From a virus, in the IMG/VR virus record IMGVR_UViG_3300042876_000344: 64,000 nucleotides of DNA, one strand, 5' to 3'. The translations under genes and the position numbers were made by a program. Shown one piece after another: positions 2,223 through 28,342 of the stretch. The notes under the pieces are model-generated. The model had not been told where the DNA came from. It did not search any database and was given only the letters and a program-made list of their open reading frames with translations. Positions within the stretch are counted from its first letter, which is position 1, and each line of letters starts with the position of its first letter.

Positions 2223-2973
2223 GCACCTTGAGGTGAAGTTTACCGACGCCGAGAAGTTGGAGATGGGGCGGGACGTTGCGCGCCTGAACCAGGAGAAACG
2301 GCGCCTGGACCAGAAGCTGACGGAGATCAAGAAACAGTTGACGGGCGAGATCTCCGGGAAAGAAACAGAGATCGACCGGCTGATGGACCTGTTATCGAAC
2401 GGGTACGAGTATCGGCAGGTAGAATGTCGGATCGAATTGGACGTGCCAAGCCAGGGGAAGGCAAGCATTATCCGGATGGACACCAATGAAGTGGTCCGCG
2501 TTCGCCGGATGACCGACGAGGAGATGCAGATCCCCTTGCCGCTGGCCGAAGCCGCGCCTGTCGAGGAGCCCACTGTCGAGGAGCCCGAGCCCGAGCCGGA
2601 ACCGGAGCCGGAGGCCCCGCCCGTGGAGGTCGTCGAGGCGGAAATCGTGTGCGAGGTAGCCGGGCCGCTCCGCGAGTACTCGCACTCGAAAAATGGCGGC
2701 TCATGCTCGCTGATCGTCCACCAGGTCGACGGCGAGATCCGGATGAACTGGGTGGCCGACGCCGAAGGCGAGCATGCCGAGCAGTCCGGAGCCGGGAAAG
2801 CCTATCCTTCTGTCGTCGCCGCGGCGAAAGACGGGATGATCGCGATCTGGAACTGGGCGTATGCCCTCATCAATGCGACGACGAACCCGACGAAGCGGGC
2901 GGCGCTGCTGTCCGTGGTTGGGTTTGCATCGGACGGGGTGACAGCCCTCCGAAAAGAGGAGCCCCCGGAGTGA
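2206..2973 (+). CDS. hypothetical early protein (coiled-coil N-terminus, PEPE acidic linker)
   Basis: ORF 2200-2973. GGGAGG at 2195-2200 favours ATG 2206. Protein-like composition. Confidence 0.6.
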   Translation: MTCHFEHLEVKFTDAEKLEMGRDVARLNQEKRRLDQKLTEIKKQLTGEISGKETEIDRLMDLLSNGYEYRQVECRIELDVPSQGKASIIRMDTNEVVRVRRMTDEEMQIPLPLAEAAPVEEPTVEEPEPEPEPEPEAPPVEVVEAEIVCEVAGPLREYSHSKNGGSCSLIVHQVDGEIRMNWVADAEGEHAEQSGAGKAYPSVVAAAKDGMIAIWNWAYALINATTNPTKRAALLSVVGFASDGVTALRKEEPPE

Positions 2974-3215
2974 CATCGGACCTCACTCGCGGGTTTGCCA
3001 GTGGCGTTCTCGTGGCGATGCTGGTGTTTTCCAGTATCTGGTATCTCGCAGACCGCGCGCGGGGAGGCCAACGCCTCCCCGCTGACTGGCTGATATCGGC
3101 GCTGCATGCCATCGCGATGATGGCGAAAGCCGTGGCTGATGGCTTCGAATCAGCAGTGAAGGATTACCGCTACATGCGGAAACACTTTGGGAAGGAGTCG
3201 GGCCATGCCATGTAA
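2970..3215 (+). CDS. small membrane protein (hypothetical)
   Basis: GTG 2970 overlaps the upstream stop (GTGA), with GAGGAG 8 nt upstream. Hydrophobic segment GVLVAMLVFSSIWYL. Only the 3' third of track ORF 2649-3215 looks coding. Confidence 0.45.
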   Translation: MTSDLTRGFASGVLVAMLVFSSIWYLADRARGGQRLPADWLISALHAIAMMAKAVADGFESAVKDYRYMRKHFGKESGHAM

Positions 3216-3450
3216 CCTAAAGCCGCTACCAGGCGGAGGCCATGCCATCGTTTGCACGCGCGGGCGACGGCCCATCGTGTGCGTTACGTGTCGCCGTCCT
3301 GGCAACATCTTGTGCGACTATCCGGTGACACGCGACGGGAAACCCGGCACGTGTGACCGGCCATGCTGCCGCCAGCATGCGGTATCAGTTGGGCCGAATC
3401 GCGATTACTGCTTGGCGCATGCGAATCTTTCGGAGGCTGCCAATGGCTGA
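3205..3450 (+). CDS. Cys-rich (zinc-finger-like) small protein
   Basis: ATG 3205 lies 7 nt after GAAGGAG. Contains CxxC and multiple Cys/His (CVTCRRPGNILC...CDRPCCRQH). Stop overlaps the next start (ATGGCTGA). Confidence 0.5.
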   Translation: MPCNLKPLPGGGHAIVCTRGRRPIVCVTCRRPGNILCDYPVTRDGKPGTCDRPCCRQHAVSVGPNRDYCLAHANLSEAANG

Positions 3451-4363
3451 CAAGTCCTCTATTGAGTGGACCGACGCGACATGGTCCCCCTTCCGCGGCT
3501 GCACCCGGATCTCCCCTGGCTGCCAGAACTGCTATGCCGAGCGCATGGCAGCGCGCAATTTGCTAGGGCACAGATCACCCACGACGGGCAATCCGTTCGC
3601 CAACATGACGCAGGGTGGGCCGCGCTGGACGGGCAAGGTGGAGTTGATCGAGAGCCAGATGAATGCGCCCCTTCGCTGGCGCAGGCCGCGCCGGATATTT
3701 GTCAATTCGATGAGCGATACGTTCCACGAGCGCGTGTCCGTTGAGTGGATTGAACGCGTTTTCGCGGTGGCGTCAGTGTGCCAGCAGCACACGTTCATTA
3801 TGCTCACGAAAAGGTCAAAGCGCCTGCGCGAGTATCACGCCGAAGATCTCATGGGGCGCGGGGCAAGGCATCGCGTCTATAACCGCGCGTACGCCCTCGG
3901 GGCAATCTGGCAGCGGAGTCCCTCCGTAGGCTGGCCGCTCCGCAATATCCACATGGGCATCTCCGCTGAGGATCAACCGCGCTTCGATGAGCGAGTTGAA
4001 GATCTGCGCGCAACGCCCGCCGCCGTCCGCTGGCTCTCAATGGAGCCGCTACTTGGCCCCATTGATCTGGCTGGCCGGCTGGACGGCATCCACTGGGTTG
4101 TCGTCGGCGGCGAGTCTGGACCGGGCGCGCGGCCAGTCCAAAAGGATTGGGTGCGATCCATCCGGAACGCGTGCGTTGAGGCTGGCGTGCCGTTTTTCTT
4201 CAAGCAGTGGGGAGAATATCTCCCTCCAATGACGGATGGCGCGATCACAGATAACGGGCAGGTCCTGAACTGCTCCGATGTGCCAGTGCGTATCGGAAAG
4301 TCTCGCGCTGGGGCATCGCTTGATGGGCGCGAGTGGCGCGAACTGCCGGAGGCTGCGCGATGA
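3443..4363 (+). CDS. phage Gp37/Gp68 family protein (DUF5131-like)
   Basis: N-terminus MADKSSIEWTDATWSPFRGCTRISPGCQNCYAERMA is the hallmark start of the Gp37/Gp68 family. About 306 aa. Confidence 0.8.
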   Translation: MADKSSIEWTDATWSPFRGCTRISPGCQNCYAERMAARNLLGHRSPTTGNPFANMTQGGPRWTGKVELIESQMNAPLRWRRPRRIFVNSMSDTFHERVSVEWIERVFAVASVCQQHTFIMLTKRSKRLREYHAEDLMGRGARHRVYNRAYALGAIWQRSPSVGWPLRNIHMGISAEDQPRFDERVEDLRATPAAVRWLSMEPLLGPIDLAGRLDGIHWVVVGGESGPGARPVQKDWVRSIRNACVEAGVPFFFKQWGEYLPPMTDGAITDNGQVLNCSDVPVRIGKSRAGASLDGREWRELPEAAR

Positions 4364-5106
4364 GCCCCCGCCAACGTGCCGAGGCCATCATGGCCATCTC
4401 GCCCCGGCCCGCCTGCTTCAATGAGGCGTGGTGGGTGGAGCAGATCACCAGCGCCATCCAGGCGGCCATCAAGGATCTACTCGCCTCCGTAGTCGTGGGG
4501 GCCACCATGGACGGCAATGTGCGCGTGCGGGTGGGCGACTATGAGCAGGTAGTTGAGATCCGAACTGCGCAGCAACAGGCCCTCGCCGCCGCGCTGGAAG
4601 ACCTCGCCGCCGTGACTGCCGAGCGGGACGGGTTAGCCGACGAACTACGCAAGACGCACAAACTCCTGGGCGAGACGCAGGAGCGGTACGAAGCCGCGCT
4701 GGAGGAGAAGCGGGCGGAACTGGCGAAGGTAACCAAAGAGCGCGACGAACTGCGCGCGGAACTCGACACTTGCCCCGACTGCGAGGGCGAGGGGTACATC
4801 GAGAGCATCGGGTCCGACAATTACCCGGAGTCGGTTAGATGCGAGCATAAGGGGCTCAAGGCGGCGGAACTGGCGGCGGTCGCGCGGGAGCGGGACGGGC
4901 TTGCGGCGGCGCTGGCAACAGCTCTCCATCGCATGTCGTGTACCGTAAATCACTGCAAAGAGTGCTATGCCTACAGATTGTACAGCAGGCCGTCTGATGT
5001 CCTCGCCGCCCACGACCGCGCAGTCGCGGCGCGGGTGCTGCGGAGAGAAGCCGAGGGGCATTTTAAGGATGAGGGCTATTCGGATCTGAGTGTAGGTGTT
5101 CGCTAG
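4360..5106 (+). CDS. coiled-coil protein with CPDCEGEG zinc-knuckle-like motif (hypothetical)
   Basis: ATGA overlap with the upstream stop. Long heptad-like E/L/A/R region. Confidence 0.6.
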   Translation: MSPRQRAEAIMAISPRPACFNEAWWVEQITSAIQAAIKDLLASVVVGATMDGNVRVRVGDYEQVVEIRTAQQQALAAALEDLAAVTAERDGLADELRKTHKLLGETQERYEAALEEKRAELAKVTKERDELRAELDTCPDCEGEGYIESIGSDNYPESVRCEHKGLKAAELAAVARERDGLAAALATALHRMSCTVNHCKECYAYRLYSRPSDVLAAHDRAVAARVLRREAEGHFKDEGYSDLSVGVR

Positions 5107-5174
5107 GTGTTCGCTAATGATGCAACAGCGTCAAACTTCGGATTTGAGTGTTGACAACCACACTGGAATCCGAT
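5079..5174. repeat. three copies of a 15-bp motif (ACACNNNAATCCGAA and its reverse complement), two of them forming an imperfect palindrome around a -35 box
   Basis: TTCGGATCTGAGTGT at 5079-5093. TTCGGATTTGAGTGT at 5137-5151. ACACTGGAATCCGA at 5160-5173. Confidence 0.7.
5094..5115. repeat. exact 11-bp tandem duplication AGGTGTTCGCT x2 spanning the stop codon of gene 4360-5106
   Basis: Units at 5094-5104 and 5105-5115, read directly. Confidence 0.8.
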
Positions 5175-5179
5175 ATTGT
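5151..5179 (+). promoter_or_regulatory. sigma70-like promoter TTGACA-17 nt-TATTGT, with ATG 6 nt after the -10 (leaderless candidate)
   Basis: -35 at 5151-5156 and -10 at 5174-5179. ATG 5186 has no room for an SD. Flanked by the palindromic motif copies. Confidence 0.4.
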
Positions 5180-5185
5180 AAAAGC

Positions 5186-5464
5186 ATGACAAGTACAAGG
5201 ATCGACGCCAAAACGATGAAAGGTGAGATCCGAGTTCGCCGTGGCTACGACATTCGGGTTGACTCGAAGACTGGACAGAAGACGGAGGTTTCCCCCGTCG
5301 TTTGTATGTGCTGCCAGAAGGACATCTTTCACGTCTCTGAACTTATCAATGGCGACATCGTTGGACCGGGATGCGACGGACTCATTGCCTGTCCGGTGTA
5401 TCGGATTGGCCGCACGCTCAACAGGAAGCAAGCCGCATACGCTTCATCAAGGGGGTTGCTATGA
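5186..5464 (+). CDS. hypothetical small protein (CxxC-containing), first gene of the lower-GC island
   Basis: In-frame ATG 5186 inside track ORF 5096-5464, directly downstream of the predicted promoter. Stop overlaps the next start. Confidence 0.45.
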   Translation: MTSTRIDAKTMKGEIRVRRGYDIRVDSKTGQKTEVSPVVCMCCQKDIFHVSELINGDIVGPGCDGLIACPVYRIGRTLNRKQAAYASSRGLL

Positions 5465-5628
5465 CCGAGCAGGAAGTCGAGCTGATTATAGACAAATTGC
5501 GGGAAGCCGAGAGCATGGTGATCTCGGCCCTCTTGGACGACAGGAAGCGGGATAGCTGGGGGGCGTTGGACGAGTGTAAAGTTCTGATTTGGAAGGCAAT
5601 GGACCAAGCGGGAGACGCAGCACGATGA
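5461..5628 (+). CDS. hypothetical small protein
   Basis: ATG 5461 overlaps the upstream stop. Peptide MTEQEVELIIDKLREAESMV... is helical and protein-like. Confidence 0.5.
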   Translation: MTEQEVELIIDKLREAESMVISALLDDRKRDSWGALDECKVLIWKAMDQAGDAAR

Positions 5629-5804
5629 GTTGGGAAGCGTGGGGCAGCGGCCCGGAACCATTCGACGTTGACAAACTGTATCGGGAAGGGTGGGATTGCG
5701 ATGAGAGTTGTGTGGTGTGGTTCAAGGAGGAGGAGCCGGAGAAAGTCTACACACTGGATGAGGCAATCCAAATCTATGAGGATTGGCTATCAAATGAGGA
5801 GTAA
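5625..5804 (+). CDS. hypothetical small acidic protein
   Basis: ATGA coupling at 5625. MSWEAWGSGPEPFDVDKLYREGWDCDES... Confidence 0.5.
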   Translation: MSWEAWGSGPEPFDVDKLYREGWDCDESCVVWFKEEEPEKVYTLDEAIQIYEDWLSNEE

Positions 5805-5808
5805 CTCT

Positions 5809-6147
5809 ATGACGAGAGTCGTCGAGGTAAAGCCGGGTATTGAGATGCGGATTCGTGGCCTCCGATGGGATGACGGCTGGAGGTACGGCTCCCCGGTGGC
5901 ACTCATAGACCCCGTTCTGAAAGTGTACGAGGACGGACGGAGCCTAGAAAGGGCAATCGAAGACCTGTGTATTGATGCGTGTGTTTGCGGCGTACTGAAA
6001 GATGAGGAAGCATGGCGATGGGAAGCGGCTCCGGGTGGGTCCTTGGCCTACCTCAGACGCAAGTTTTACCGCACGCATGTCCAGCGAGTTGATTGTAAGG
6101 TGCGGTTCATTGTTGACGACGACGGAGAGTTGTGGTGGGAGGCGTAA
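5809..6147 (+). CDS. hypothetical protein
   Basis: GAGGAG lies 8 nt upstream of ATG 5809. MTRVVEVKPGIEMRIRGLRWDDGW... Confidence 0.55.
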   Translation: MTRVVEVKPGIEMRIRGLRWDDGWRYGSPVALIDPVLKVYEDGRSLERAIEDLCIDACVCGVLKDEEAWRWEAAPGGSLAYLRRKFYRTHVQRVDCKVRFIVDDDGELWWEA

Positions 6148-6551
6148 TGGGTATGTTTGCGCCGGGTAGAAGCGAGACGGTGAACTACCACTATTGGCCG
6201 ATCCGATTCGGCTGGTCTAGTGGGCCATACCAGCAAACACTTTGGCGGTGGGTTAGAAGGGCTATCGACAGCAGGCGGTGGACCCTCGATTACCCACACC
6301 GATACACTTGCCTGTCGTCGCTGGAAATTCACAGGGCTGCTGCCCGTCGAATGTGGCACGGTTGGCCCATCGGGGGCAGTTCAAGGGAGTATGGCTGGAC
6401 GCTTCACCTTGGACGGTTTAAGGTGTACTTCGGAGATCCGGACACCACACGGCAATCCGAAATCAGTACTAATGGTCCATCCACACCGCAATCCGAAGTT
6501 GGTAAACTGGCTTCATGCCAAACAGACTCGGACTCAAGGACTGGAAAGTGA
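6147..6551 (+). CDS. hypothetical protein; its 3' end runs through motif copies and overlaps the transposase start
   Basis: ATG 6147 shares a base with the upstream TAA. Trp-rich. The last ~35 codons are encoded by the repeat-containing segment and may not be native. Confidence 0.4.
   Translation: MGMFAPGRSETVNYHYWPIRFGWSSGPYQQTLWRWVRRAIDSRRWTLDYPHRYTCLSSLEIHRAAARRMWHGWPIGGSSREYGWTLHLGRFKVYFGDPDTTRQSEISTNGPSTPQSEVGKLASCQTDSDSRTGK
6447..6497. repeat. two direct copies of the 15-bp motif upstream of the transposase ATG
   Basis: ACACGGCAATCCGAA at 6447-6461. ACACCGCAATCCGAA at 6483-6497. Confidence 0.7.
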
Positions 6552-7837
6552 CGAACGTCGAAGAAAGCACAACAGACATGAGGGTGACGGCAGAGTACAC
6601 GCCGCCACCCACGGCCTGCCCTCGCTGTGGGTTGGCCGACCAGCCGCTCTACAAGCACGATGTCCGCACTCAGGAGTTCATGGATACCCCGCTCCACGGA
6701 AAGCGGGTCCATTTGATCGTGAGACGCCAGCGGTACGTCTGCCAAGGGTGCGAGAAAACCTTCCAGCAGATCCTTCCTGATATGGAGGAAGACCGCACGA
6801 TGACGAAGCGACTGGTGTCGTACATCAAGCGTCTATCGCTGGAAAAGAAGTTCACTGAGATTGCTGATGAGGTTGGAGTCAACGAGAAGACCGTCCGCAA
6901 CCTATTCAAAGAGCACGTCGAAAGGCTCGATTCCGAGCGGGTCATCACGGCCCCGGAGTGGCTTGGCGTGGATGAGCTTCACATATTGGGTGACTTTCGG
7001 GCGATGCTCACAGCCCCCGGCGAGAAGAAGATTCTTGACCTTCTGGAGAAACGAGACAAGGCTACCGTTCTCAAGTGGATGCTGGCCCTGCCCAACCGGA
7101 AGAACGTCAAGGTGGTGACGATGGACATGCACCGCCCGTACCGGGAAGCTGCGTTGGCAGCGTTTCCGAATGCCGCCTGTGTGGTGGATGTATTCCACGT
7201 CGTCAGGATGGCAAACAAAGCGGCGGATTCGCTCCGCATCGCACTCAAGGATGAACTGGACCCGAAGGTACGCCGGAAGATCAAGCGTGATCGGTGGATC
7301 ATTCAGGCACGTCGCAGGAACCTGAAGGCTGGCGACGTAATCATGCTGCATTCGTGGGATCGGGTAGTTCCGATGCTCTCGGCAGCATACCGGGCAAAGG
7401 AAGACTTCTACGACATCTACGAAAAGGCCAAGGACCGGGCGGAAGCTCTTGAACTGTGGGACTTGTGGCTGGAGATGTTGGAGCCGGAACTGAAGAAGCC
7501 CTTCAGTGAACTGATCCGGGCTGTGACGAACTGGAAGCCCGAAATCTTCAACTTCTTCGACTACCGGGGCAAGACCAACGCCTACACGGAAGCGATCAAT
7601 AGCGTCATTCGAGCCATCAACCGTGCTGGTCGTGGCTATAGCCTCGACGCCATCAGAGCCAAGGTGTTGTACGGCGGCAAGAAGCGGCAGACGGACACCG
7701 AGTACCAGAAGGTCGCCTTGTCGATGAAGATCAAGCGGCCCAAGGTGGACACAACTTATCGGGTGGACCCGGAGACAGTGCTCCATGTGGACAAACCACC
7801 CAAACCAAAGAAGAAGACAAGAAAGTATGAGAAATGA
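6515..7837 (+). CDS. ISL3-family DDE transposase (apparently intact)
   Basis: 440 aa. N-terminal zinc finger CPRCG...CQGCEK. HTH region. DDE-type core blocks VTMDMHRPY, VVDVFH and TNAYTEAINSVIRAINR, typical of ISL3 transposases. Confidence 0.9.
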   Translation: MPNRLGLKDWKVTNVEESTTDMRVTAEYTPPPTACPRCGLADQPLYKHDVRTQEFMDTPLHGKRVHLIVRRQRYVCQGCEKTFQQILPDMEEDRTMTKRLVSYIKRLSLEKKFTEIADEVGVNEKTVRNLFKEHVERLDSERVITAPEWLGVDELHILGDFRAMLTAPGEKKILDLLEKRDKATVLKWMLALPNRKNVKVVTMDMHRPYREAALAAFPNAACVVDVFHVVRMANKAADSLRIALKDELDPKVRRKIKRDRWIIQARRRNLKAGDVIMLHSWDRVVPMLSAAYRAKEDFYDIYEKAKDRAEALELWDLWLEMLEPELKKPFSELIRAVTNWKPEIFNFFDYRGKTNAYTEAINSVIRAINRAGRGYSLDAIRAKVLYGGKKRQTDTEYQKVALSMKIKRPKVDTTYRVDPETVLHVDKPPKPKKKTRKYEK

Positions 7838-20826: not shown

Positions 20827-21506
20827 TACTTCACCACCCTCCAGCCCCAGGCTTCCTTCAGGTGCTTGACTCCCTTGGAGTCGGTGAAGATATCGCCCAC
20901 GGCATAGCCGTCGGGCTGGGTCCTCAGTTCATGCTGCGCGGCGCTGATCCCGGAAACGCGCCCCAAGGGGCCTTCGCCCTCGGGGGTGGGCGCCTGCGTC
21001 GACACGGGGGCGGGGGGTGTGGGCGGGATCTCTGCGGCCGGGACCGGACCGGGGGCGGGGCGGGGAACTTCCAGTTCGTCTATCAGGTCCAGGTCGGACT
21101 CTACCGATACGCCGGCGCCGGCGTGGTAGTAGCGGTCGACGATGCCGGCAGCGTTCAATCGGCGCCCGTTGGGCAGGACCACGGAATAGGTCAGCTTGTC
21201 GGCGTAGTAGATTCCACCTTCGATCCCACGGACAGCCTCAAGGGTGGCGCCGGGAACGAACAATTGGACCAAGCGGAGAGCTTCCTGCGCGCCGGAGGGG
21301 CTCGCGCTCTGTTTCGGGTTGACGTAATGGTTCACTTGCCCGTTCGTCGTGTTGTACACCGCGATGGCGTCAAACAACGCGTAATAGTCTGGGACGAAGG
21401 TGTAATCCGGCTCCGTTCCTTTCGGATGGAAATACGGGTTGTGTGCGGCTGGGCCAGCGTATCCCCAGTCATTGGGGAGGGGTGAGTTTCTGAGGGCGAT
21501 ATTCAT
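20826..21506 (-). CDS. hypothetical protein with Pro-rich linker
   Basis: 226-aa ORF, tightly coupled at both ends. Confidence 0.6.
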   Translation of the reverse strand: MNIALRNSPLPNDWGYAGPAAHNPYFHPKGTEPDYTFVPDYYALFDAIAVYNTTNGQVNHYVNPKQSASPSGAQEALRLVQLFVPGATLEAVRGIEGGIYYADKLTYSVVLPNGRRLNAAGIVDRYYHAGAGVSVESDLDLIDELEVPRPAPGPVPAAEIPPTPPAPVSTQAPTPEGEGPLGRVSGISAAQHELRTQPDGYAVGDIFTDSKGVKHLKEAWGWRVVK

Positions 21507-21985
21507 TCAGGCAATCCTTTCGACTGGGCCCATGCGCGATAATCCGCATCTCTGGGCCACACGAGAGACGGACATTCGGTTGCCCGCACCTGACGGTGCA
21601 GGAGGATTTTCGTAATCGGGTGCCGCGCCATGATCCAGCGGATGACGGCAATCAGGGTTTCATCCTGTTCTTGGGTGAGCCCTTCCTTCTCGCCCTGGGG
21701 CAATGGGCGATAGGCTTCAATTTCAATCCCGATGGAGGAGTGGTTGATGTCGCGGTTGCCAGCATGCCAGGCAGCATCCTTTTCGTCGACGCATTGGATA
21801 ACGGCGCCGCCCCTGGTGATAACGTAGTGCGCGCTGACCTGTGATTTCGCATCCTGGAACCACTTCACCGCGCCCGCTGCCTTGCCAGACGTGTTGTGCA
21901 GCACGATGGCAGAGATCTCTTTTTCGCGCGGCGACCGATTGGGCGACCGCGCGAATGAGATCGCAAAGTGCAGCGCATTATCCAA
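21503..21985 (-). CDS. N-acetylmuramoyl-L-alanine amidase (Amidase_2/PGRP-type endolysin)
   Basis: AIVLHNT...VSAHYVI...AAWHAG...HSSIGIEIE motifs. The start is uncertain: TTG 21985 (GAGG 7 nt upstream, 8-nt overlap) is preferred over ATG 22048 or 22096, which would overlap the upstream gene by 71 nt or more. Confidence 0.8.
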   Translation of the reverse strand: MDNALHFAISFARSPNRSPREKEISAIVLHNTSGKAAGAVKWFQDAKSQVSAHYVITRGGAVIQCVDEKDAAWHAGNRDINHSSIGIEIEAYRPLPQGEKEGLTQEQDETLIAVIRWIMARHPITKILLHRQVRATECPSLVWPRDADYRAWAQSKGLPE

Positions 21986-22382
21986 GGTACGGCCTCGAAA
22001 CGACGAAGAAACTCCGGTCGGCCGTCTGGACAACCGGCGACGTCCCATCGTGCGAGATGAGTTGGATGAACCGGCCGGCGGCGAAATCGCCTCCAACCAG
22101 CGTCATGAAGCTGCTCGCCGGGCCGGCAGTGTACTCGACAGGAGCCCCGCCGACATCGTAGACGGGCGCCCATCCAGCGTCGTTGTAGGCTGGCACGTCG
22201 TTGGGATAGGCGAGCCCGCGGCCGTGGTGGACGTTGAGCCTGATCTTGGTCGCTCCCGCATCCCAGGCGGCGGGCATGAAGATGCCGACCAGCGCCTGCC
22301 CGTGGAGGGGGATCGGCTGGCTCACAGACCGGCCAGAAACGAAGCTGGCCGGAATCTCCTGCTGTTGGTAAAACTCGCTCAT
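21978..22382 (-). CDS. hypothetical protein
   Basis: 134 aa, ATGA-coupled to the giant ORF. Confidence 0.6.
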   Translation of the reverse strand: MSEFYQQQEIPASFVSGRSVSQPIPLHGQALVGIFMPAAWDAGATKIRLNVHHGRGLAYPNDVPAYNDAGWAPVYDVGGAPVEYTAGPASSFMTLVGGDFAAGRFIQLISHDGTSPVVQTADRSFFVVSRPYLG

Positions 22383-25300
22383 TCAGGTAGTCTCCTTAGG
22401 AATTCTTTCATGATTTCGACCTTGCGTTCTGGGGTAGCCGTGCGGATTGACTTTCCGCCCTCAGCCTTGATGACAGATTGGCGTGCCTGGTTTGCCGCGG
22501 AGTTGATGGCCCTCTTCTTCTGCTGCTCATCGAACGCATCAAATGCCGGGTTCGCCCTGATTCGCTTGATAGCCGCCCGCGCTGCCTTTTCCTGCGCCTC
22601 GCGCCGGAGGGTGTAGTAGGAATTCTCCTGCGCACCGCCGGCGGCAGACGTGAATCTCTTCAGCACCGCGGTGGGCAGCGTCTCTCCGCCGATCTCTTCG
22701 GGCTTGATCGCGCCCGCCGCTGCCGCTGCTGTGTCGGCGAGGTTCAGCAGTTGCGGCGTCCAGCCCCCGAGCGTGGATTTCACGAACTGCTCCACCTTGA
22801 TGGGAGGAGCGTTCAGTGCGCCGGCCAGCTTCTTCATCGTCCCGCTGGTATTCGGCGCCACCTGCTCCTCCACCGGCAGGTCCTGCAGCCGCTGGTTCAC
22901 GATGGGCTTCTGGCGGAAGGTGTCGAAGTTCGTTGCGTACTCTGTCGACGGCTTCGCGGCCTGCGGCAGGAGCCCCGCCCACATCCCGCGCGGGCTTGGA
23001 TCGAACGGCAACACGGACCCGGCAATCGGCCGTGCCACGTCCTGCAGCGGGTTCACCTTCTCCCCGCCCATCTGCGCTTCAATGGCGCGCCGAACAGGAG
23101 TGGCGATGGCGCCGATATCCGGAGCCATTTTCATTTTGAACACGCCATCGTACCGGCCGGTCTTTTCGTTCTTCACCGCGCCCGGCGCGATGTAGATCAT
23201 GTACCCCTCTTTTTCGTATTCGGGGATATCCCTGTAGATGGCCCTGCGCTTTTCGTCGTACATATTGGCGACGGTGAGCATCGCCATGGGAGCATACACC
23301 CCCACCATGATCTTCGTTGCGGTCTGGACGGGCCGATCCTGGAATGCTGACACGAACGACCTGGCGCCCTGGACGCGGGCGTTCAGGTAGAGGATGGCAC
23401 CGCCTAGGCCGTTGGTGACATCGCCATGCCGCCGATAGTTTGGGAGCTCATTATTGGCCGCATGGACGCCGGCGGCCTCAGCTTCAGCCGGAGTTGCCCC
23501 CCGCCGGAGATTCGCCCGCTCTGTCCCGAGGAACAGACGCGCCCGGCCAAACTGCTCGCCCCGGTTGTTGAAGTCCTCAATCGCGCGGATCAGACCGGCG
23601 GCGCGCTTTACGGGGATGCCGACAGCCCACTTGACCTTGTTGCCCTTGAACCCTTCGGCGTCGACCAAGTGCTTGGCGTAGTCCTTGGCACTGCGAAACT
23701 TCCGCATGCCGCCGACAGTCTGCGGCATCGTCTCACGGAACAGGTCCAGCGAAGTGAACCCGGCCCCGGTTTTCTCGATTCGGCTCCAGGTCTGGTTATG
23801 GAAGTAGGCCGCGGCGAACGCCTGCCCAAACACCTTCGGGTTTAGGGACGTGTCCCGGTATTCCTTCGAATTCACCAGGGTGGTGAACCAGTCTCCCACC
23901 GGGTTAGCAAAACCGAATGCGATGTTCGCCCCCGTCGTGCCCATCCGCGCCAAGCGCGCCGGCCCGTTCATGATGAGAGCCAGGGTCTTGTTCATCTGCT
24001 GGGCGTTGAGACATTTCGCCGCCGCCGCGATCTCCGGCGTGGTCTGGATGACGACCTTCTTGCCGTCGCGCAGATAGGTGAACGACGTTTTCGAGTCTGC
24101 CTCGCTGACCTCCTGCAGGAGCCCCTGCATTCCCGGCTTGTTGGCGTAGCTGGCCAGGAGCGCCGCCGCCTTGTTTTTCTCGCCCTGCTCGAATGCCTTC
24201 CGGGTCCTATCAAGCATCGTCTCAAGCGGGTTTTCGATGGCGCGCTCACTGCCGACACGCTTCTGGTAGACGCTCTGGGCGGAGAGGGATGCCGTCGCCT
24301 TCGTGCCAGACATGTTGGCGGATGCGTCTTCAATGGCGCCCATAATGCGGCTGAGAGGAACATGCTCTGTGCCGTATTGCTGCCGCCAGACGCCGGCGAT
24401 CTGCTGGCTCACCAGCCCTGACTTGACGCTATAATCCAGGAGCCTGTCACCAGCCAGCCCCACCTCTTTGGCGAGTTGCCCGTAGGTGATGCCGGATTCA
24501 TTGGCCGGCATGTTCACATACTTGTTGTAAATTGCCTTCGCTCCGGCCAGGTCAACGCCGGTAGCCCGGTCTTTGCCCTGCGACTCGCGGATGGCTTCCT
24601 TGGCCACAAGGAAATCGTTGAGGGCCTGGTAGTCGTCCGCGGCCTGAATCGCGCGCATGAGCCCGCCGTCGCGGATCTCGCGCTCTGCAAGCTCACGGCT
24701 GCCGAGCGATCGGTCGGCAGCGTTGCTGAAGTCCCGGCGCGATGAATCGTTGTTCTTCGCGAGCACGTCGAGGATCGGGGAGAGGTTGTCGACGAACTCC
24801 GCCTTCCGCTTGGTGAGTTTCTCTAGGAGCGAGTACTCCTTGCCCTTGCGCGCCGCTTCCCGCTTGGCCGCGAGGGTTGCCCGCGCCTGCTCTGCCGCGT
24901 CCATCGGCGGTGCCGGCTGCTTGCCTGGGATCGTGAGGAAGCCGCCCTGGTCGGCTAGGCGGCGGGGGGAGACTCCAGAGGGGGCGTCGAAGAGTCCGGG
25001 ACCTTCTGACGGACCACTGGCCACTCCTCCGCCAGGCTCCGCAGGAACGCCGCCTTCTCCTCCGCGGACAGCCTTGGATACCTCGGCTCTGACGATTCCG
25101 TAGAGTTGATCTGCGACCTGTTTGCGGGGCTTTCCATCGGCAACCTCTCGGGCTGCCTGGGCGATGGCGTCGGCGATTGGACCGGATTTATCCTGGAGGG
25201 CATCGAATACTCCCAGCGCCTCGCCAGCTTCTCCAGCGATCTGCGCGTTTCGTTCCGCCTCTATTTTATTCCCAGCGCCGGCCAAACGCGAGGCCGCGTT

Positions 25301-28300
25301 TTCGTTGCCGACGACGGAGAACAACCGCTTCTCTTGACCGAGCCGCGCCTTGATGTCGGCGACAAGGTGCGCTTCTTCGTTGAAGAGGCTCTCCTCGTAG
25401 GCATTCGTCCCGAACAGGGATTCCTGCTCAACCTGCTTGGATCCAGCCTTGCCTGCCCGGCGAACGACCTCTTCCAGCGCACCCTCTCGCATATTGGGAT
25501 GGCCAGCCATGAACTTCGCGACAGCGATCTGCGCCGCCTCGCTGAGGTTGCCCTTGCCGATGATGGCGCCCTGTCGGTGGGTGAGCCCGCCTCGCACAAC
25601 GTCGTCGAACAGCACGCCGGTCAACTTCGAGAGAGCGAGGCCGTCTTCGGCCACCTTCCCCTTCATCGAAATTCCGTTCGCGGCGAGTTCTTCCGGGGTG
25701 AGTCCACTGTCCCTGAATACCTTGGCTGCGTCAACAGCCGTGCCCTTGCCATCACCGATGTTGATGAGCGCGCCCTTCAGCCGGGCCTGTGCTGCGTTGG
25801 GGGCATCGACATACCGGACAGACATACTGTCCTCGCCGAGGCGTGCGGCCATCTCGTAGCGGTGGTGACCGTTGACAACGTAGGTCTTGCCGTCGGCAGG
25901 GTCGCGCCAGACCGCGATGGTTCCGGCCTTGTCCCTGTCGAACTTCGTGACGCCTTTGTACTCGTCGGTCACACCACCTTTGAGGTAGGCGTCCATCTTG
26001 TACTGGAACCGCTGCGGGTCGACGTGGAGATCCTCGATCGGAACGCGTATCTCCTTCGGATCGGCAACGACGCGCTGCTGCGCAGGGGCGGCCTGCGCTC
26101 CGCCGAGAGGGATATCCACTTGGCTACCATCTCGCTTGCTAAACGAAATGTGATCCAGTGTAATCTCCTGCCCATCCAGCGCCTTGTTGCCAGCGAACTT
26201 CGTGCCCTCGCCGGGCTTCACGTAGGCCAGCGTTACATGCGGCCGGTATGTCGGATGAGTATCGGTGTGTGGCAGGGCATCCGCGATAGCCTTGTTGATC
26301 CGATGAAGATCAGGTGATTCAACGTCGACCTTCACGACGTCAGATCCGCTGGCGTTCTTGGCGGGGAAGATACTAGTTTCCCCGAGGCGAGCACGAACCG
26401 GATGCTCCCGCGACAACACTTCGCGTATTTTTTCAATTGCTGCCGGAGAGTCATCATGCAGCCCGTACTTCACGGTGACATGCGGCTGGCTCTCCCTGCC
26501 ATCTTCCGCCAGCACGAAATCTGGGATTCTCAGGGATTCCTGCTTTACCTTGTCTGCGACTGGACCAGATAGGTTGGCCTGCGTAGATGCAAATTCGTGC
26601 GCAGGGGCGGCCTGCTCCGCCCCTGCTGGTGCTGCCTTCGGTTGGATCACCTCCTCTCTCGGGGGTTCCGACTTGAGTGCAGGCATGAGATCGTCGACGT
26701 GAATTTGAGCGCTGCCCGGGACGCCTACTGGTTGTAGTCCCTCGCGTCCGGAGGGGGGAATTTCTTGCCGGGATGGTCCTTCTGGAACTGCTCCTTGTTT
26801 TTGAAAAACTGGACCTGCTTCTCCCGGTGCTGCGCTTGGCTCTGCGACTGGTACGTTCCCAGGTTCTTGCCCTTGCCTGATACCAGCCGGAACTTGTTGC
26901 CCACTTTCTCGATCATTGGGGACCTCCAGGTCGTCGACAGTGAATACTTTCGCGGACTTCAGCGGGGTAGCCGGCTCGAATAGTGGCTTCGCTGGGGCAG
27001 GGGGTGCAGGGGCCTCAACAGCAGGCGGCTGTCGGGTTTCGTTATCTATGAACGTCTGGGCCGCATCCTGCGCTGACCGGGGTGCTTCGAACACGGCAGC
27101 GGATTCTGCGGCCGACTTGAACGGTGTGGCCGGCAGCGCTGTGTCTGGCCGCGCCTGCCAGGAATATTCCCATGGCAGCCTGGTGGAATCTTCGGGGTGA
27201 ACGTCGGCATAGCCCTGCTGATACGCGGCATCTTGGGCGGCCTTGGTGCGGTCGCCGTACCGTTCGAGCAACTGCTCTTTCCTGGATTTAGTAGGCTGGG
27301 CTACGGGCTGTTCTGTTTTCGGAACAGACGGCGGCATAATCTCCACCGGCTGCTCATTCGGTGCCGTCTCGCGTGTTCCGAAGTAATCGCCAGGGCGTTT
27401 CGCCTGCGCCGCGTGCTCCCGCCGCAACTGCTCCAGTTCGATGTTCGCGCGCTGCTCGCCGAGCCGGGCACCCTTGAAGGACGTCCCATTCGCACCGGGT
27501 GCAGCCAGCCCAGCGCCTGTCAGGAAAGCGGCTGCGGTGTCTGTGGGAGATCCGCCACCGATGGCGGTCTCCGCGCCCATCGCTGTGCCCATGCCAGCCA
27601 TCCTGGTGGCGGTGCGCGCCGGAGCCATGACGTGCCCTAGGGAGCCGAGCGCGGCACCCTTCGCTCCAGCCAGAGCAGCATGCCCGAATCCCTTGTCGGC
27701 TTCAGATGCGGCGTCGACGGCCGCCATGCCGAGAGGACCACCCAGCACCGCCGTAGCCACGCCATACTTCGCCAGATCGACAGGAGCCTGTCCGATGGCC
27801 TCATACAGGGGCTTCGCCAGCCCCGTGGCCCCCTGCCCTTCGAGTTTGTTCGCCTCTCCCTGGTAGAACTCCTCCACTGGAGTATACGGGTTTGCGTTCT
27901 CCGTGCCGGCTACGTGGTAGGTAGTCGCCCCGCGAAGCCCAAGATTCGCCGCCCGTGATGCGTCGGCGGCGATCTCATCGCGCCACCCCTTGCCAGGCGA
28001 GGCAGGAACAGAGGAGGGGACAGGCAGATCTGGCGCGACGGCGGGCTTCGACATATAGGGGTTGCCCGCCATGTCGGCGCCCATCTGCGCCAAGTTCCCG
28101 CCGAGTTTTGCCGTCTTCGCGACAGCGCGATTGTAGCCCTGCTGAATCGACCGCGCCGGCCGGATGATGCTCTCGCTGATGAGGTTCATCCCGGTTGCGC
28201 CGGGCGTCTCCTCCATCTTCACCTTCGGAGCGGCGATGCCCTTGAGAGGGATACCGGCCGCTTGCGATGCCTGCTCGTTGAGATCTGGAGGGACCAGATC

Positions 28301-28342
28301 GTCGACCGAAACCACGAGATCATCTACAGAGTATTTGGGCAT
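22379..28342 (-). CDS. giant polyvalent virion or ejection-type protein with 2H-phosphoesterase-like and ParB/Srx-like domains
   Basis: 1987-codon open frame. Gly/Ala-rich membrane-like N-terminus. Two HxT motifs (PHVTVKYGL near nt 26482, PHVTLAYV near nt 26239). ParB-like VDPQRFQYK...VVNGHHRYEMA at about 25763-26050. Long alpha-helical C-terminal ~1000 aa. Confidence 0.8.
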   Translation of the reverse strand: MPKYSVDDLVVSVDDLVPPDLNEQASQAAGIPLKGIAAPKVKMEETPGATGMNLISESIIRPARSIQQGYNRAVAKTAKLGGNLAQMGADMAGNPYMSKPAVAPDLPVPSSVPASPGKGWRDEIAADASRAANLGLRGATTYHVAGTENANPYTPVEEFYQGEANKLEGQGATGLAKPLYEAIGQAPVDLAKYGVATAVLGGPLGMAAVDAASEADKGFGHAALAGAKGAALGSLGHVMAPARTATRMAGMGTAMGAETAIGGGSPTDTAAAFLTGAGLAAPGANGTSFKGARLGEQRANIELEQLRREHAAQAKRPGDYFGTRETAPNEQPVEIMPPSVPKTEQPVAQPTKSRKEQLLERYGDRTKAAQDAAYQQGYADVHPEDSTRLPWEYSWQARPDTALPATPFKSAAESAAVFEAPRSAQDAAQTFIDNETRQPPAVEAPAPPAPAKPLFEPATPLKSAKVFTVDDLEVPNDRESGQQVPAGIRQGQEPGNVPVAEPSAAPGEAGPVFQKQGAVPEGPSRQEIPPSGREGLQPVGVPGSAQIHVDDLMPALKSEPPREEVIQPKAAPAGAEQAAPAHEFASTQANLSGPVADKVKQESLRIPDFVLAEDGRESQPHVTVKYGLHDDSPAAIEKIREVLSREHPVRARLGETSIFPAKNASGSDVVKVDVESPDLHRINKAIADALPHTDTHPTYRPHVTLAYVKPGEGTKFAGNKALDGQEITLDHISFSKRDGSQVDIPLGGAQAAPAQQRVVADPKEIRVPIEDLHVDPQRFQYKMDAYLKGGVTDEYKGVTKFDRDKAGTIAVWRDPADGKTYVVNGHHRYEMAARLGEDSMSVRYVDAPNAAQARLKGALINIGDGKGTAVDAAKVFRDSGLTPEELAANGISMKGKVAEDGLALSKLTGVLFDDVVRGGLTHRQGAIIGKGNLSEAAQIAVAKFMAGHPNMREGALEEVVRRAGKAGSKQVEQESLFGTNAYEESLFNEEAHLVADIKARLGQEKRLFSVVGNENAASRLAGAGNKIEAERNAQIAGEAGEALGVFDALQDKSGPIADAIAQAAREVADGKPRKQVADQLYGIVRAEVSKAVRGGEGGVPAEPGGGVASGPSEGPGLFDAPSGVSPRRLADQGGFLTIPGKQPAPPMDAAEQARATLAAKREAARKGKEYSLLEKLTKRKAEFVDNLSPILDVLAKNNDSSRRDFSNAADRSLGSRELAEREIRDGGLMRAIQAADDYQALNDFLVAKEAIRESQGKDRATGVDLAGAKAIYNKYVNMPANESGITYGQLAKEVGLAGDRLLDYSVKSGLVSQQIAGVWRQQYGTEHVPLSRIMGAIEDASANMSGTKATASLSAQSVYQKRVGSERAIENPLETMLDRTRKAFEQGEKNKAAALLASYANKPGMQGLLQEVSEADSKTSFTYLRDGKKVVIQTTPEIAAAAKCLNAQQMNKTLALIMNGPARLARMGTTGANIAFGFANPVGDWFTTLVNSKEYRDTSLNPKVFGQAFAAAYFHNQTWSRIEKTGAGFTSLDLFRETMPQTVGGMRKFRSAKDYAKHLVDAEGFKGNKVKWAVGIPVKRAAGLIRAIEDFNNRGEQFGRARLFLGTERANLRRGATPAEAEAAGVHAANNELPNYRRHGDVTNGLGGAILYLNARVQGARSFVSAFQDRPVQTATKIMVGVYAPMAMLTVANMYDEKRRAIYRDIPEYEKEGYMIYIAPGAVKNEKTGRYDGVFKMKMAPDIGAIATPVRRAIEAQMGGEKVNPLQDVARPIAGSVLPFDPSPRGMWAGLLPQAAKPSTEYATNFDTFRQKPIVNQRLQDLPVEEQVAPNTSGTMKKLAGALNAPPIKVEQFVKSTLGGWTPQLLNLADTAAAAAGAIKPEEIGGETLPTAVLKRFTSAAGGAQENSYYTLRREAQEKAARAAIKRIRANPAFDAFDEQQKKRAINSAANQARQSVIKAEGGKSIRTATPERKVEIMKEFLRRLPE
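26725..26916 (-). CDS. 63-aa gene nested in the +1 frame inside the giant ORF
   Basis: GGAGG at 26923-26927 lies 6 nt before ATG 26916. MIEKVGNKFRLVSGKGKNLGTYQSQSQAQHREKQVQFFKNKEQFQKDHPGKKFPPPDARDYNQ. 53/63 codons end in G/C, versus about one third in the host frame over the same stretch. Confidence 0.6.
   Translation of the reverse strand: MIEKVGNKFRLVSGKGKNLGTYQSQSQAQHREKQVQFFKNKEQFQKDHPGKKFPPPDARDYNQ

What the first reader, a model, noticed from the sequence alone, without database searches (positions are those of the whole stretch)
26686..26944. Shine-Dalgarno-led 63-codon gene nested out of frame inside the 1987-codon virion polyvalent-protein ORF
On the minus strand, GGAGG (26923-26927) sits 6 nt before ATG 26916 of a clean 63-codon ORF (MIEKVGNKFRLVSGKGKNLGTYQSQSQAQHREKQVQFFKNKEQFQKDHPGKKFPPPDARDYNQ). 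This ORF lies in the +1 frame entirely inside the giant ORF.

By hand count, 53/63 nested codons end in G/C, like neighbouring genes. Only about one third of host-frame codons over the same stretch do. The host-frame peptide there is a G/P/Q/E-rich linker (PNDRESGQQVPAGIRQGQEPGNVP...). So this DNA seems to evolve under the nested frame, yet the host frame stays open.

The ~240-bp segment is bracketed by direct repeats TCGTCGAC(A)GTGAA (26691-26703 and 26931-26944). An in-frame host ATG follows at 26686. Possible explanations are an overprinted gene, a mini-cassette inserted into a disordered linker, or fusion of formerly separate genes.
Basis: seen in the sequence. Interest (0 to 1): 0.85.

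Follow-up and report, generated by a model that had tools for sequence, protein, structure and literature searches.

The report
Small gene inserted inside giant gene
A 63-codon phage gene with relatives in thousands of other phage proteins has been inserted, with its own ribosome-binding site, start and stop codons, into the flexible linker of a 1,987-codon multi-enzyme phage gene; the giant gene reads straight through it in another frame, so one stretch of DNA probably encodes two proteins.

Summary
ORF 26725-26916 (-) lies in the +1 frame of the 1,987-codon ORF 22379-28342 (-). It is the only stretch of that ORF where codon statistics favour another frame: GC3 is 0.84 nested against 0.28 host, and the codon-usage score is +0.83 against -0.59.

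The nested frame is the older one. The peptide belongs to an uncurated family of about 42 aa (three strands plus a helix). The family has 2,943 cluster representatives. Members occur as free-standing 44-51-aa genes and as in-frame modules of phage polyvalent proteins.

A relative (L072) has the same giant ORF uninterrupted at this site. Eleven more distant relatives also lack the module. In the window the 240-nt insert is bracketed by a duplicated 14-15-nt host sequence. A second lineage carries the same gene with different junctions. All indels are multiples of three.

pN/pS is 0-0.56 in the nested frame and 0.75-0.89 in the host frame.

Best reading: a gene cassette was inserted into a disordered linker. 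The small protein is made by internal initiation (inferred). The giant protein reads through and gains a G/P/Q/E-rich spacer. This is a new variant of phage nested genes, created by insertion rather than de novo overprinting. Expression is untested.

The parts
22379..28342 (-). Host gene: 1,987-codon phage-type polyvalent protein ORF, continuous from ATG 28342 to the stop at 22379
   Evidence: Pfam 2_5_RNA_ligase2 (aa 617-740, E 7e-15) and LPD38 (aa 1703-1877, E 5.5e-17). PHROG ParB-like (aa 761-888) and phrog_21 (aa 748-1075).
26927..28342 (-). N-terminal module of the host protein (aa 1-472), coding in the host frame. Homologous to the N-terminal part of the giant ORFs in L072 and L001.
   Evidence: pN/pS 0.15-0.17 in the host frame.
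26687..26926 (-). 240-nt (80 host codons, aa 473-552) segment absent from the related giant ORF of L072. It is the inserted cassette plus one copy of the duplicated target. The boundaries can be slid within the repeat.
26725..26916 (-). Nested small gene, 63 codons plus TAG, frame +1 relative to the host. Basic protein (7.4 kDa, pI 10.0). The module core is aa 1-40; a lineage-specific tail is aa 41-63.
26923..26927 (-). Shine-Dalgarno GGAGG, 6 nt before ATG 26916. GGAGGT plus CAATG is conserved in the second nested lineage.
26931..26945 (-). Upstream copy of the duplicated host sequence ATTCACTGTCGACGA (host aa FTVDD, VDDL at aa 469)
26691..26704 (-). Downstream copy ATTCACGTCGACGA (host aa IHVDD, VDDL at aa 549). 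It continues into sequence that aligns with the L072 empty site (GATCTC-nnn-CCTGCAC).
26123..26494 (-). 2H/LigT phosphoesterase domain of the host protein (aa 617-740), the first folded domain after the insert
   Evidence: Present in L072, absent in the L001 type.
25679..26062 (-). ParB-like nuclease domain of the host protein (aa 761-888)
   Evidence: pN/pS 0.07-0.10.
22712..23236 (-). LPD38 domain of the host protein (aa 1703-1877)

Best explanation
A pre-existing, free-standing small phage gene was inserted into the disordered linker of a phage-type polyvalent protein gene. The linker lies between the N-terminal module and the 2H/ParB/LPD38 enzymatic modules.

The cassette kept its own Shine-Dalgarno sequence, ATG and TAG, and sits in the +1 frame of the host gene. 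The inserted length is a multiple of three. The -1 frame of the small gene happens to be free of stop codons: its GC-rich third positions become first positions, so T-initial stops are rare. The host ribosome therefore reads through and the giant protein gains a 64-80-residue G/P/Q/E/V-rich spacer.

The small basic protein (three strands plus a helix) is made separately, by internal initiation at its own ribosome-binding site on the same mRNA.

Shown:
- the nested frame is the ancestral, selected coding frame;
- the insert is absent from relatives;
- the host frame and phase are preserved.

Inferred:
- both proteins are actually produced;
- the host-frame stretch acts only as a spacer;
- the insertion arose by illegitimate or microhomology-mediated recombination, and the cassette has since been exchanged by recombination;
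- the module's biochemical role (guess: a basic adaptor or nucleic-acid-binding module of virion-delivered proteins).
For: 1. Frame statistics. Nested GC3 is 0.84 and codon score +0.83. The host frame has GC3 0.28 and score -0.59, the same as an off-frame reading. This is the only such island in 34 ORFs.

2. Homology.
- Nested-type relatives are 97% and 83% identical. Free-standing genes of 45-49 aa sit in tight operons of other phage contigs.
- 59 viral-contig loci carry the module, either as 44-51-aa genes or in frame inside proteins of 200-1,551 aa.
- A profile search finds 2,943 cluster representatives at E<=1e-3, and 361 at <=1e-10.
- The window protein keeps all 14 invariant or >=90%-conserved positions of a 36-sequence family alignment.
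- Its ATG aligns with the start of the free-standing genes.

3. Empty site.
- L072 is 89% identical in the N-terminal module. Its giant ORF is uninterrupted: ...KVFTVEDLVPAP...KEVIQ...LigT...
- The window has 80 extra codons there, bracketed by a duplicated ATTCAC(T)GTCGACGA.
- 11 more distant ParB relatives are giant ORFs of 1,357-2,686 codons with no module in any frame.

4. Selection.
- Nested-frame pN/pS is 0.14 (WIN-L012), 0.38-0.56 (WIN vs L001 type) and 0/3 (L001-L004).
- Host-frame pN/pS is 0.75-0.89, and 3/0 for L001-L004.
- The flanking host domains have pN/pS 0.07-0.17.

5. Host frame kept open.
- There is no stop in either nested lineage.
- Every junction difference between lineages is a multiple of 3: +240 nt, net +141 nt, and 66-nt and 9-nt indels.
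- Free-standing homologues have 1-3 stops in that frame. The simulated chance of an open frame is 0.09.

6. No promoter-like or terminator-like site on the coding strand around the gene, so both ORFs share one mRNA.

7. Decoupled history of the cassette.
- It is more diverged than its flanks against L012: 7/192 versus 2/882, p=1.4e-4.
- It is less diverged than its flanks against the L001 type: pS 0.25 versus 0.60-0.65, p=2.6e-5.
Against: - No expression data of any kind. Internal initiation inside a translated ORF is assumed, not shown.
- Only two or three nested lineages exist, so the pN/pS values rest on 3-24 substitutions.
- Between the two main lineages, differences are spread evenly over codon positions (9/7/8). 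The normally conserved PTKAG stretch reads QSQSQ in the window. Nested pN/pS reaches 0.56. Some relaxation of the small gene is therefore possible.
- An open host frame across 64 codons is not very improbable by itself (0.09-0.27).
- RNA folding around the start gives no consistent picture: unstructured in the window (z +1.5), structured in L001 (z -1.7).
- The phylogeny is mosaic. Single insertion with later in-frame deletions, two independent insertions, and precise loss in L072 cannot be told apart.
Confidence: 0.7

Rival explanations
1. Dead cargo. The small gene was inserted as described but is no longer expressed or needed. The segment now serves only as a spacer in the giant protein, and its gene-like statistics are inherited from a recent past.
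For: - Nested pN/pS reaches 0.38-0.56 between the two main lineages, and differences are spread evenly over codon positions.
- The window has QSQSQ where the family has P/S-T-K/R-A-G.
- A ribosome-binding site inside a translated ORF may work poorly.
- L001's start region is structured.
Against: - SD, ATG and TAG are intact and identical in position in both lineages despite 12.5% nucleotide divergence.
- All 14 highly conserved family positions are retained.
- Recent changes are mostly silent in the nested frame and mostly replacements in the host frame: WIN-L012 pN/pS 0.14 against 0.88; L001-L004 0 of 3 against 3 of 3 non-synonymous.
- The 20-aa C-terminal tail is also conserved between lineages.
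Confidence: 0.14
2. Functionally split host gene. The giant ORF is a formal artefact. The upstream part, the small gene and the downstream part act as three genes, and the downstream part starts on its own near the conserved AGGAGGTGATCC.
For: - Automatic gene calls on related short contigs chose 'small gene plus downstream gene'.
- A 12-nt perfect anti-SD complement lies just downstream and is conserved in three lineages.
- The host-frame segment scores as non-coding.
- No protein in the 5.8-billion-sequence database matched the host-frame junction query.
Against: - There is no stop codon for the upstream part in any lineage.
- L072 and 11 distant relatives have one continuous giant ORF.
- All lineage differences around the insert keep the phase.
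- No start codon lies 5-10 nt after the SD-like element in the window or L072.
- ATG 26686 has no SD and is GTA in L072.
Confidence: 0.08
3. Programmed +1 frameshift. Some ribosomes translating the N-terminal module slip into the nested frame near the SD-like GGAGG and the CCC-C run. They produce an 'N-module plus small module' fusion that ends at TAG 26725.
For: - The module is an in-frame domain of many polyvalent proteins.
- The window has GGAGG-TC-CCC-A just before the ATG. From general knowledge of prfB and of tRNA-Pro slippage, this resembles SD-stimulated +1 shift sites.
- The nested frame is open for 14 (window) to 32 (L001) codons upstream of the ATG.
Against: - The CCCC run is not conserved: the L001 type has GTGTTCAATG.
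- An SD at 6 nt plus an ATG aligned with the start of the free-standing homologues explains the signals more simply.
- The length of the upstream open stretch is not conserved.
Confidence: 0.05
4. Chance ORF or assembly artefact in a GC-rich genome.
For: GC-rich genomes are full of long spurious ORFs (50 ORFs of >=50 aa in 7 kb). GGAGG-N4-9-ATG occurs 28 times in the window.
Against: - The same arrangement occurs in at least 9 independent contigs from different samples.
- The peptide family has thousands of members.
- Codon statistics and pN/pS favour the nested frame.
Confidence: 0.01

Closest known systems
Embedded out-of-frame phage genes: lambda Rz1 inside Rz; phiX174 E inside D and B inside A (own knowledge; reviewed in PMC8227390)
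   Same: A small gene with its own ribosome-binding site lies wholly inside a larger same-strand gene, in the +1 frame. Both are read from one mRNA.
   Different: - In those cases the embedded frame is the young, taxonomically restricted one, created de novo by overprinting. Here the embedded gene is the old one (2,943 homologous clusters) and arrived by insertion.
- The de novo sequence here is the host-frame spacer.
- No functional link between the two products is known.
Out-of-frame remodelled genes ('ORgenes'; Watson, Lopez & Bapteste 2021, PMC8788219)
   Same: Part of a gene's coding sequence derives from another gene family read in an alternative frame. According to that paper's section heading, such alternative-frame regions are short and disordered. 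That matches the 64-80-aa G/P/Q/E-rich spacer.
   Different: Here the donor gene is still intact in situ, with its signals and under purifying selection. The locus is therefore both a remodelled gene and a true overlapping gene pair. It is also in a phage polyvalent gene, not the E. coli pangenome.
Phage-type polyvalent proteins (Iyer et al. 2017, PMC5512222), e.g. P1 DdrB
   Same: The host ORF combines 2H, ParB and LPD38 domains. [quoted passage not shown] The small module is itself a frequent in-frame component of such proteins.
   Different: In this locus the module is not fused in frame. It is a separate out-of-frame cistron inside the polyvalent gene. No Pfam LPD model matched the module; the paper's domain list was not checked for it.
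Morons (autonomous small-gene insertions in lambdoid phages; own knowledge)
   Same: A small extra gene is present in some relatives and absent at the same site in others. It was apparently acquired by illegitimate recombination.
   Different: Morons sit between genes and carry their own promoter and terminator. This cassette sits inside an ORF and has neither.
YegP / UPF0339 (DUF1508) small-protein fold (PDB 3bid, 6q2z, 2k7i)
   Same: The best PDB fold matches of the AlphaFold model (three strands plus a helix) are all of this family.
   Different: The matches are not significant (E 0.7-4, TM 0.32-0.39). There is no sequence or profile match. This is a lead only.

Membership tests
Phage-type polyvalent protein (Iyer et al. 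2017) | Several unrelated enzymatic or effector domains in one polypeptide | tested here: met
   2_5_RNA_ligase2 E 7e-15; LPD38 E 5.5e-17; ParB-like phrog_1033 E 1.6e-6. All lie in one 1,987-codon ORF.
Phage-type polyvalent protein (Iyer et al. 2017) | Domain set typical of the phage type (2H, DdrB-ParB, LPD38) | tested here: met
   [quoted passage not shown] All three kinds were found here.
Phage-type polyvalent protein (Iyer et al. 2017) | Packaged in the virion and delivered with the DNA | not testable with these tools
   Neighbours are mostly unknown. An amidase/endolysin lies at 21503-22096. There are no proteomic data.
Overlapping gene pair created by overprinting (Rz/Rz1, phiX174 D/E type) | Two same-strand ORFs share nucleotides in different frames | tested here: met
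Overlapping gene pair created by overprinting (Rz/Rz1, phiX174 D/E type) | The embedded frame is the younger, taxonomically restricted, de novo one | tested here: not met
   The embedded frame has 2,943 homologous clusters. The host-frame segment has none and has off-frame codon statistics.
Overlapping gene pair created by overprinting (Rz/Rz1, phiX174 D/E type) | Both frames are translated | not testable with these tools
   Needs Ribo-seq or proteomics.
Out-of-frame remodelled gene (ORgene, PMC8788219) | A segment of the gene is homologous to another gene family in an alternative frame | tested here: met
   Host aa 476-539 are the -1 reading of a member of the module family.
Moron | Presence/absence polymorphism at one site among relatives | tested here: met
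   L072 empty site
Moron | Own promoter and terminator; located between genes | tested here: not met
   No promoter-like site, and no terminator-like site on the coding strand. The cassette lies inside an ORF.
Uncurated ~42-aa module family (I-x-K...RLVS..GKNLG...A..REKQV..FK) | Conserved positions of the family alignment and the strand-strand-strand-helix architecture | tested here: met
   14/14 invariant or >=90% conserved positions. AF2 pLDDT 83.5 with E2-5, E8-12, E18-22, H25-47. BFVD matches at rmsd 0.5-0.9 over 40-42 residues.
YegP / UPF0339 (DUF1508) | Match to the Pfam model or significant fold similarity | tested here: inconclusive
   No Pfam hit at E<=1. Foldseek top hits 3bid/6q2z/2k7i have only E 0.7-4 and TM 0.32-0.39.
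Self-splicing insertion (group I/II intron, intein) | Intron RNA structure, or an in-frame intein with splicing motifs | tested here: not met
   No Rfam match at E<=1 in 26300-27300. The insert's gene is out of frame and only 63 codons long.
Transposon/MITE-like element | Terminal inverted repeats plus a target-site duplication | tested here: not met
   A direct duplication is present in the window lineage only. There are no terminal inverted repeats. The junctions differ in the second lineage.
Programmed ribosomal frameshift site | Conserved slippery sequence with a stimulator | tested here: not met
   The CCCC run of the window is replaced by GTGTTC in the L001 type.

The most novel reading that the evidence does not exclude
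The locus may be a snapshot of how phage polyvalent proteins acquire modules. A mobile, recombinationally exchanged mini-cassette encodes a very widespread but undescribed 42-aa adaptor module. It lands in inter-domain linkers as an out-of-frame cistron. It is tolerated there because its alternative frame is stop-free and disorder-prone, and it can later be fused in frame. This would explain why the same module is found free-standing and at every position of hundreds of polyvalent proteins.

Supporting hints:
- The cassette's divergence is decoupled from its flanks in both directions.
- Two lineages have different junctions in the same ~50-nt linker.
Probability: 0.3. Interest if true: 0.75.

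Novelty: new variant of a known kind. Interest (0 to 1): 0.62.

Why it matters
- Origin of the overlap. Nested genes in phages are textbook cases of de novo overprinting. This locus shows another route to the same architecture, with a comparative trail: empty site, duplicated target, frame-specific selection. A complete old gene is inserted into a large ORF, and the large ORF survives by reading the insert in a stop-free alternative frame as a disordered spacer.
- Annotation. Gene callers cannot report both genes. In public data either the small gene or the giant gene was dropped. Such arrangements are therefore systematically missed.
- A new domain family. The locus exposes a very common, uncurated small phage domain with 2,943 cluster representatives. 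No Pfam model, no solved structure and only an unnamed PHROG match it. It is tied to virion-delivered multi-enzyme proteins, so its function is worth finding.
- Testability. Two single-base changes, each silent in one frame, make the dual-coding hypothesis directly testable.

Tried and rejected
**Searches that found nothing**
- blastn of 26000-27600 against 50,697 phage records: no match.
- tblastn of the peptide against the same records: only E~1 hits.
- Protein search with the N-terminal module: swamped by 8,000 low-complexity candidates, nothing scored.
- Protein search with the host-frame junction peptide: nothing. No further host-frame readings could be collected.
- Metagenome scan for more nested-type relatives: only distant module copies.
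- Two genome-contig scans: nothing, so no host or prophage clue.
- Pfam on the peptide, on free-standing homologues and on nine large module-bearing proteins: no model covers the module.
- PHROGs: only phrog_3684, of unknown function.
- PDB by sequence profile: nothing.
- Cluster names: uninformative.
- Rfam on the region: nothing, so an intron was rejected.
- Promoter/terminator scan: nothing on the coding strand.

**Ideas rejected**
- Terminal inverted repeats: none, so a MITE-like element was rejected.
- Frameshift site: not conserved between lineages.
- TAG recoding: rejected, because TAG ends 9 of 34 gene-like ORFs.
- ATG 26686 as a downstream start: rejected, because it has no SD and is GTA in L072.
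- RNA folding of the start region: contradictory between lineages, so not used.
Full report
**Observation**

- It occupies 26725..26916 on the minus strand and has 63 codons.
- It is in frame +1 of the 1,987-codon ORF 22379..28342.
- GGAGG (26923-26927) lies 6 nt before its ATG.

Codon statistics favour the nested frame.
- Over the segment, GC by codon position is 0.55/0.28/0.84 in the nested frame and 0.83/0.55/0.28 in the host frame. The giant ORF as a whole is 0.67/0.48/0.73.
- A sliding profile shows this is the only place in the giant ORF where host-frame GC3 falls to 0.32-0.37. The minimum elsewhere is 0.50.
- A codon-usage log-odds score trained on 23 other ORFs of the window gives +0.83 for the nested frame. 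True in-frame windows score 0.51 +/- 0.21.
- The host frame scores -0.59, exactly the mean of off-frame windows.
- Among 34 gene-like ORFs of the window, no other convincing off-frame island exists.

The direct repeats (26931-26945 and 26691-26704) are each unique in the window and 240 nt apart.

**The host gene**

- Pfam finds a 2H/LigT phosphoesterase (aa 617-740) and LPD38 (aa 1703-1877).
- PHROGs add a ParB-like nuclease (aa 761-888).
- Iyer et al. [quoted passage not shown] The host gene is a member of that class.
- Neighbouring genes are mostly unknown. An amidase/endolysin lies just downstream.
- No cultured phage in the collection resembles this region.

**The nested gene belongs to an old and very large family**

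- A search of 5.8 billion proteins found two nested-type relatives (97% and 83% identical, 63 aa). It also found three free-standing proteins of 45-49 aa, encoded in tight operons of unrelated phage contigs.
- A scan of viral contigs found 59 loci. In some the ~42-aa module I-x-K-x-G-x-K-Y-R-L-V-S-K-x-G-K-N-L-G-T-Y-x-T-x-A-G-A-E-K-R-E-K-Q-V-x-Y-F-K is a free-standing gene of 44-51 codons. In others it lies in frame in open reading frames of 200-1,551 codons, at the N-terminus, the middle or the C-terminus.
- The large proteins scanned with Pfam carry kinase or Zeta-toxin-like, nucleotidyltransferase, cytidylyltransferase, ParB, chitinase-like and other domains. This fits polyvalent proteins.
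- A profile search of 1.84 billion cluster representatives gave 2,943 hits at E<=1e-3 and 361 at <=1e-10. The 150 best are 52-1,473 aa long.

The family is uncurated.
- No Pfam model covers it.
- Only one PHROG matches it, and that one has no known function.
- No solved structure is related by sequence.
- The only cultured-phage copy found, in Aeromonas phage 1233, is unannotated.

Structure.
- AlphaFold (pLDDT 83.5) predicts three strands followed by a long helix.
- BFVD fold matches confirm the same unit in small proteins of T4-like Vibrio and Yersinia phages. They also find it in cytidyltransferase-like, XkdF-, ART-PolyVal- and LPD-bearing proteins.
- The best PDB matches are YegP/UPF0339 proteins, but they are not significant.

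The window protein keeps all 14 invariant or nearly invariant positions of a 36-member alignment. Its ATG aligns with the start of the free-standing genes. The window has no second copy of the module.

**Comparative anatomy of the site**

L072 is an IMG/VR contig 89% identical in the N-terminal module. It has a continuous giant ORF (at least 1,606 codons) with no trace of the small gene.
- At the site it reads ...KSAAESAKVFTVEDLVPAPRPSSPELPRKEVIQSAPVAGAVQAAPAHEFAST..., continuing into the LigT and ParB domains.
- The window reads ...KSAKVFTVDDL-[80 codons]-MPALKSEPPREEVIQ...AHEFAST....
- The 80 extra codons (26687-26926) hold the SD, the small gene, 23 nt of 3' flank and a second copy of ATTCAC-GTCGACGA-TCTC. 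The window lineage therefore looks like an insertion with a 14-19-nt target duplication.

A second lineage (L001-L008, from several independent samples) carries the same gene.
- The gene is 87.5% identical in DNA, but the junctions differ. It replaces 51 nt of the L072-like linker, a net gain of 141 nt.
- It lacks both VDDL repeats.
- Its SD overlaps host sequence (GCGAAGGTGTT in L072, GCGGAGGTGTT in L001).
- It also lacks the LigT domain.

Every one of these differences is a multiple of three, and the host frame is open and in phase in all contigs. Eleven more distant relatives of the ParB module are giant ORFs of 1,357-2,686 codons without the module in any frame. The continuous giant ORF is therefore the ancestral state and the small gene is a secondary insertion.

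**Selection**

| Comparison | Nested-frame pN/pS | Host-frame pN/pS |
|---|---|---|
| Window vs L012 | 0.14 | 0.88 |
| Window vs L001 type | 0.38-0.56 | 0.75-0.89 |
| L001 vs L004 | 0 of 3 changes non-synonymous | 3 of 3 changes non-synonymous |

The flanking host domains have pN/pS 0.07-0.17. The nested protein is thus under purifying selection, while the host-frame peptide drifts almost freely apart from staying open.

How likely is an open host frame by chance?
- Given the nested amino-acid sequence and the genome's codon usage, the probability is about 0.09.
- For generic -1 frames of this genome it is about 0.27.
- The free-standing homologues carry 1-3 stops in that frame.

Openness is therefore a modest coincidence or a filter at insertion. 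The strictly in-phase indels argue that it has since been maintained.

**A decoupled history**

- Against L012, the flanks are 99.8% identical (2/882) but the small gene differs at 7/192 positions (p=1.4e-4).
- Against the L001 type, the flanks have pS 0.60-0.65 but the small gene only 0.25 (p=2.6e-5).

The cassette has therefore been exchanged independently of its surroundings, or inserted more than once.

**Mechanism proposed**

Shown:
- an old small gene sits inside the linker of a polyvalent gene;
- it is selected in its own frame;
- the host frame is kept open and in phase.

Inferred:
- Both genes are read from one mRNA, since no promoter or terminator lies nearby on the coding strand.
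- The small protein (7.4 kDa, pI 10.0) starts at its own SD and ATG.
- The giant protein reads through and gains an acidic spacer rich in P, G, V, Q and E (pI 4.4). Such a composition is expected when GC-rich third positions become first positions.
- The role of the module is unknown. From its basic helix and its constant association with virion-delivered multi-enzyme proteins, I guess it is a nucleic-acid- or particle-binding adaptor. Confidence in this is low.

**Rivals**

- Silent relic of the small gene: possible (0.14).
- Host gene functionally split: unlikely. There is no stop, relatives are continuous and all indels are in phase.
- Programmed +1 frameshift: unlikely. The candidate slippery run is not conserved.
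- Chance or artefact: excluded.

**Comparison with known systems**

- The architecture is that of lambda Rz/Rz1 or phiX174 D/E, but the polarity of origin is reversed.
- The host-frame spacer fits the 'out-of-frame remodelled gene' concept of Watson et al. (PMC8788219). Here, though, the donor gene stays intact in place.
- It is like a moron in its presence/absence pattern, but it lies inside an ORF and lacks its own transcription signals.
- It is not an intron, intein or MITE.

I rate it a new variant of a known kind.

**Limits**

- There are no expression data.
- Only two or three nested lineages are known, and substitution counts are small.
- Two large protein searches returned nothing.
- The order of events cannot be resolved: one insertion followed by in-frame deletions of 24 and 66 nt, two insertions, or precise loss in L072.

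Noticed in passing
window 26644-26655 (-); L072 ~7003-7015; L001 ~3755-3767: AGGAGGTGATCC is a 12-nt perfect complement of the 16S rRNA 3' end. It lies inside the giant ORF (host aa EEVIQ), about 70 nt after the small gene's stop. The 13 nt AGGAGGTGATCCA are identical in three lineages whose surrounding linker is highly divergent. In the L001 type the element directly follows the TAG. No start codon lies 5-10 nt downstream in the window or L072. It could be a relic RBS, a pause site or a re-initiation aid.
   Followed up: partly
window giant protein aa 6, 13, 469, 549 (nt about 28327-28316, 28306-28295, 26938-26927, 26698-26687): The short motif VDDL occurs four times. Two copies are at the extreme N-terminus (window lineage only) and two flank the insert. 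L072 has VEDL at the empty site. It might be a processing or docking motif, in which case the spacer could be cut out.
   Followed up: partly
window 26123-26494 (-) versus L001/L002: The 2H/LigT domain is present in the window and in L072 but absent from the L001-L008 lineage, which runs from the small gene straight into the ParB domain. This is a second module presence/absence polymorphism in the same linker zone.
   Followed up: partly
L072 and L001, upstream of the insertion site: The N-terminal module carries an internal duplication of about 110 aa (QQGY.DVHP.D.TRLPWE.SWQARPDTA.PA.P.KSA). The window lacks it.
   Followed up: no
L001 2224-7569: In this 20-kb contig the giant gene is broken into three overlapping frames (2224-4902, 4376-6556, 6541-7569) and contains runs of N. 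The automatic gene calls there are mostly on the wrong strand. This could be assembly error or decay.
   Followed up: no
L087 (Aeromonas phage 1233, OR359403.1 54730-54855): This is the only cultured phage in the collection with the module. It carries it as an unannotated free-standing gene of about 43-50 codons, after an 812-aa protein and a small membrane protein.
   Followed up: partly
L012 1-27: The first ~27 nt of this short contig do not align with the window, although the remaining 1,113 nt are about 99% identical. This could be a contig-end artefact or a different upstream junction.
   Followed up: no
window 1265-2158 (-): This is the only other ORF flagged by the off-frame scan. It overlaps better-scoring plus-strand ORFs (1034-1762, 1692-2222), so it is probably a shadow ORF, not a second nested gene.
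   Followed up: no
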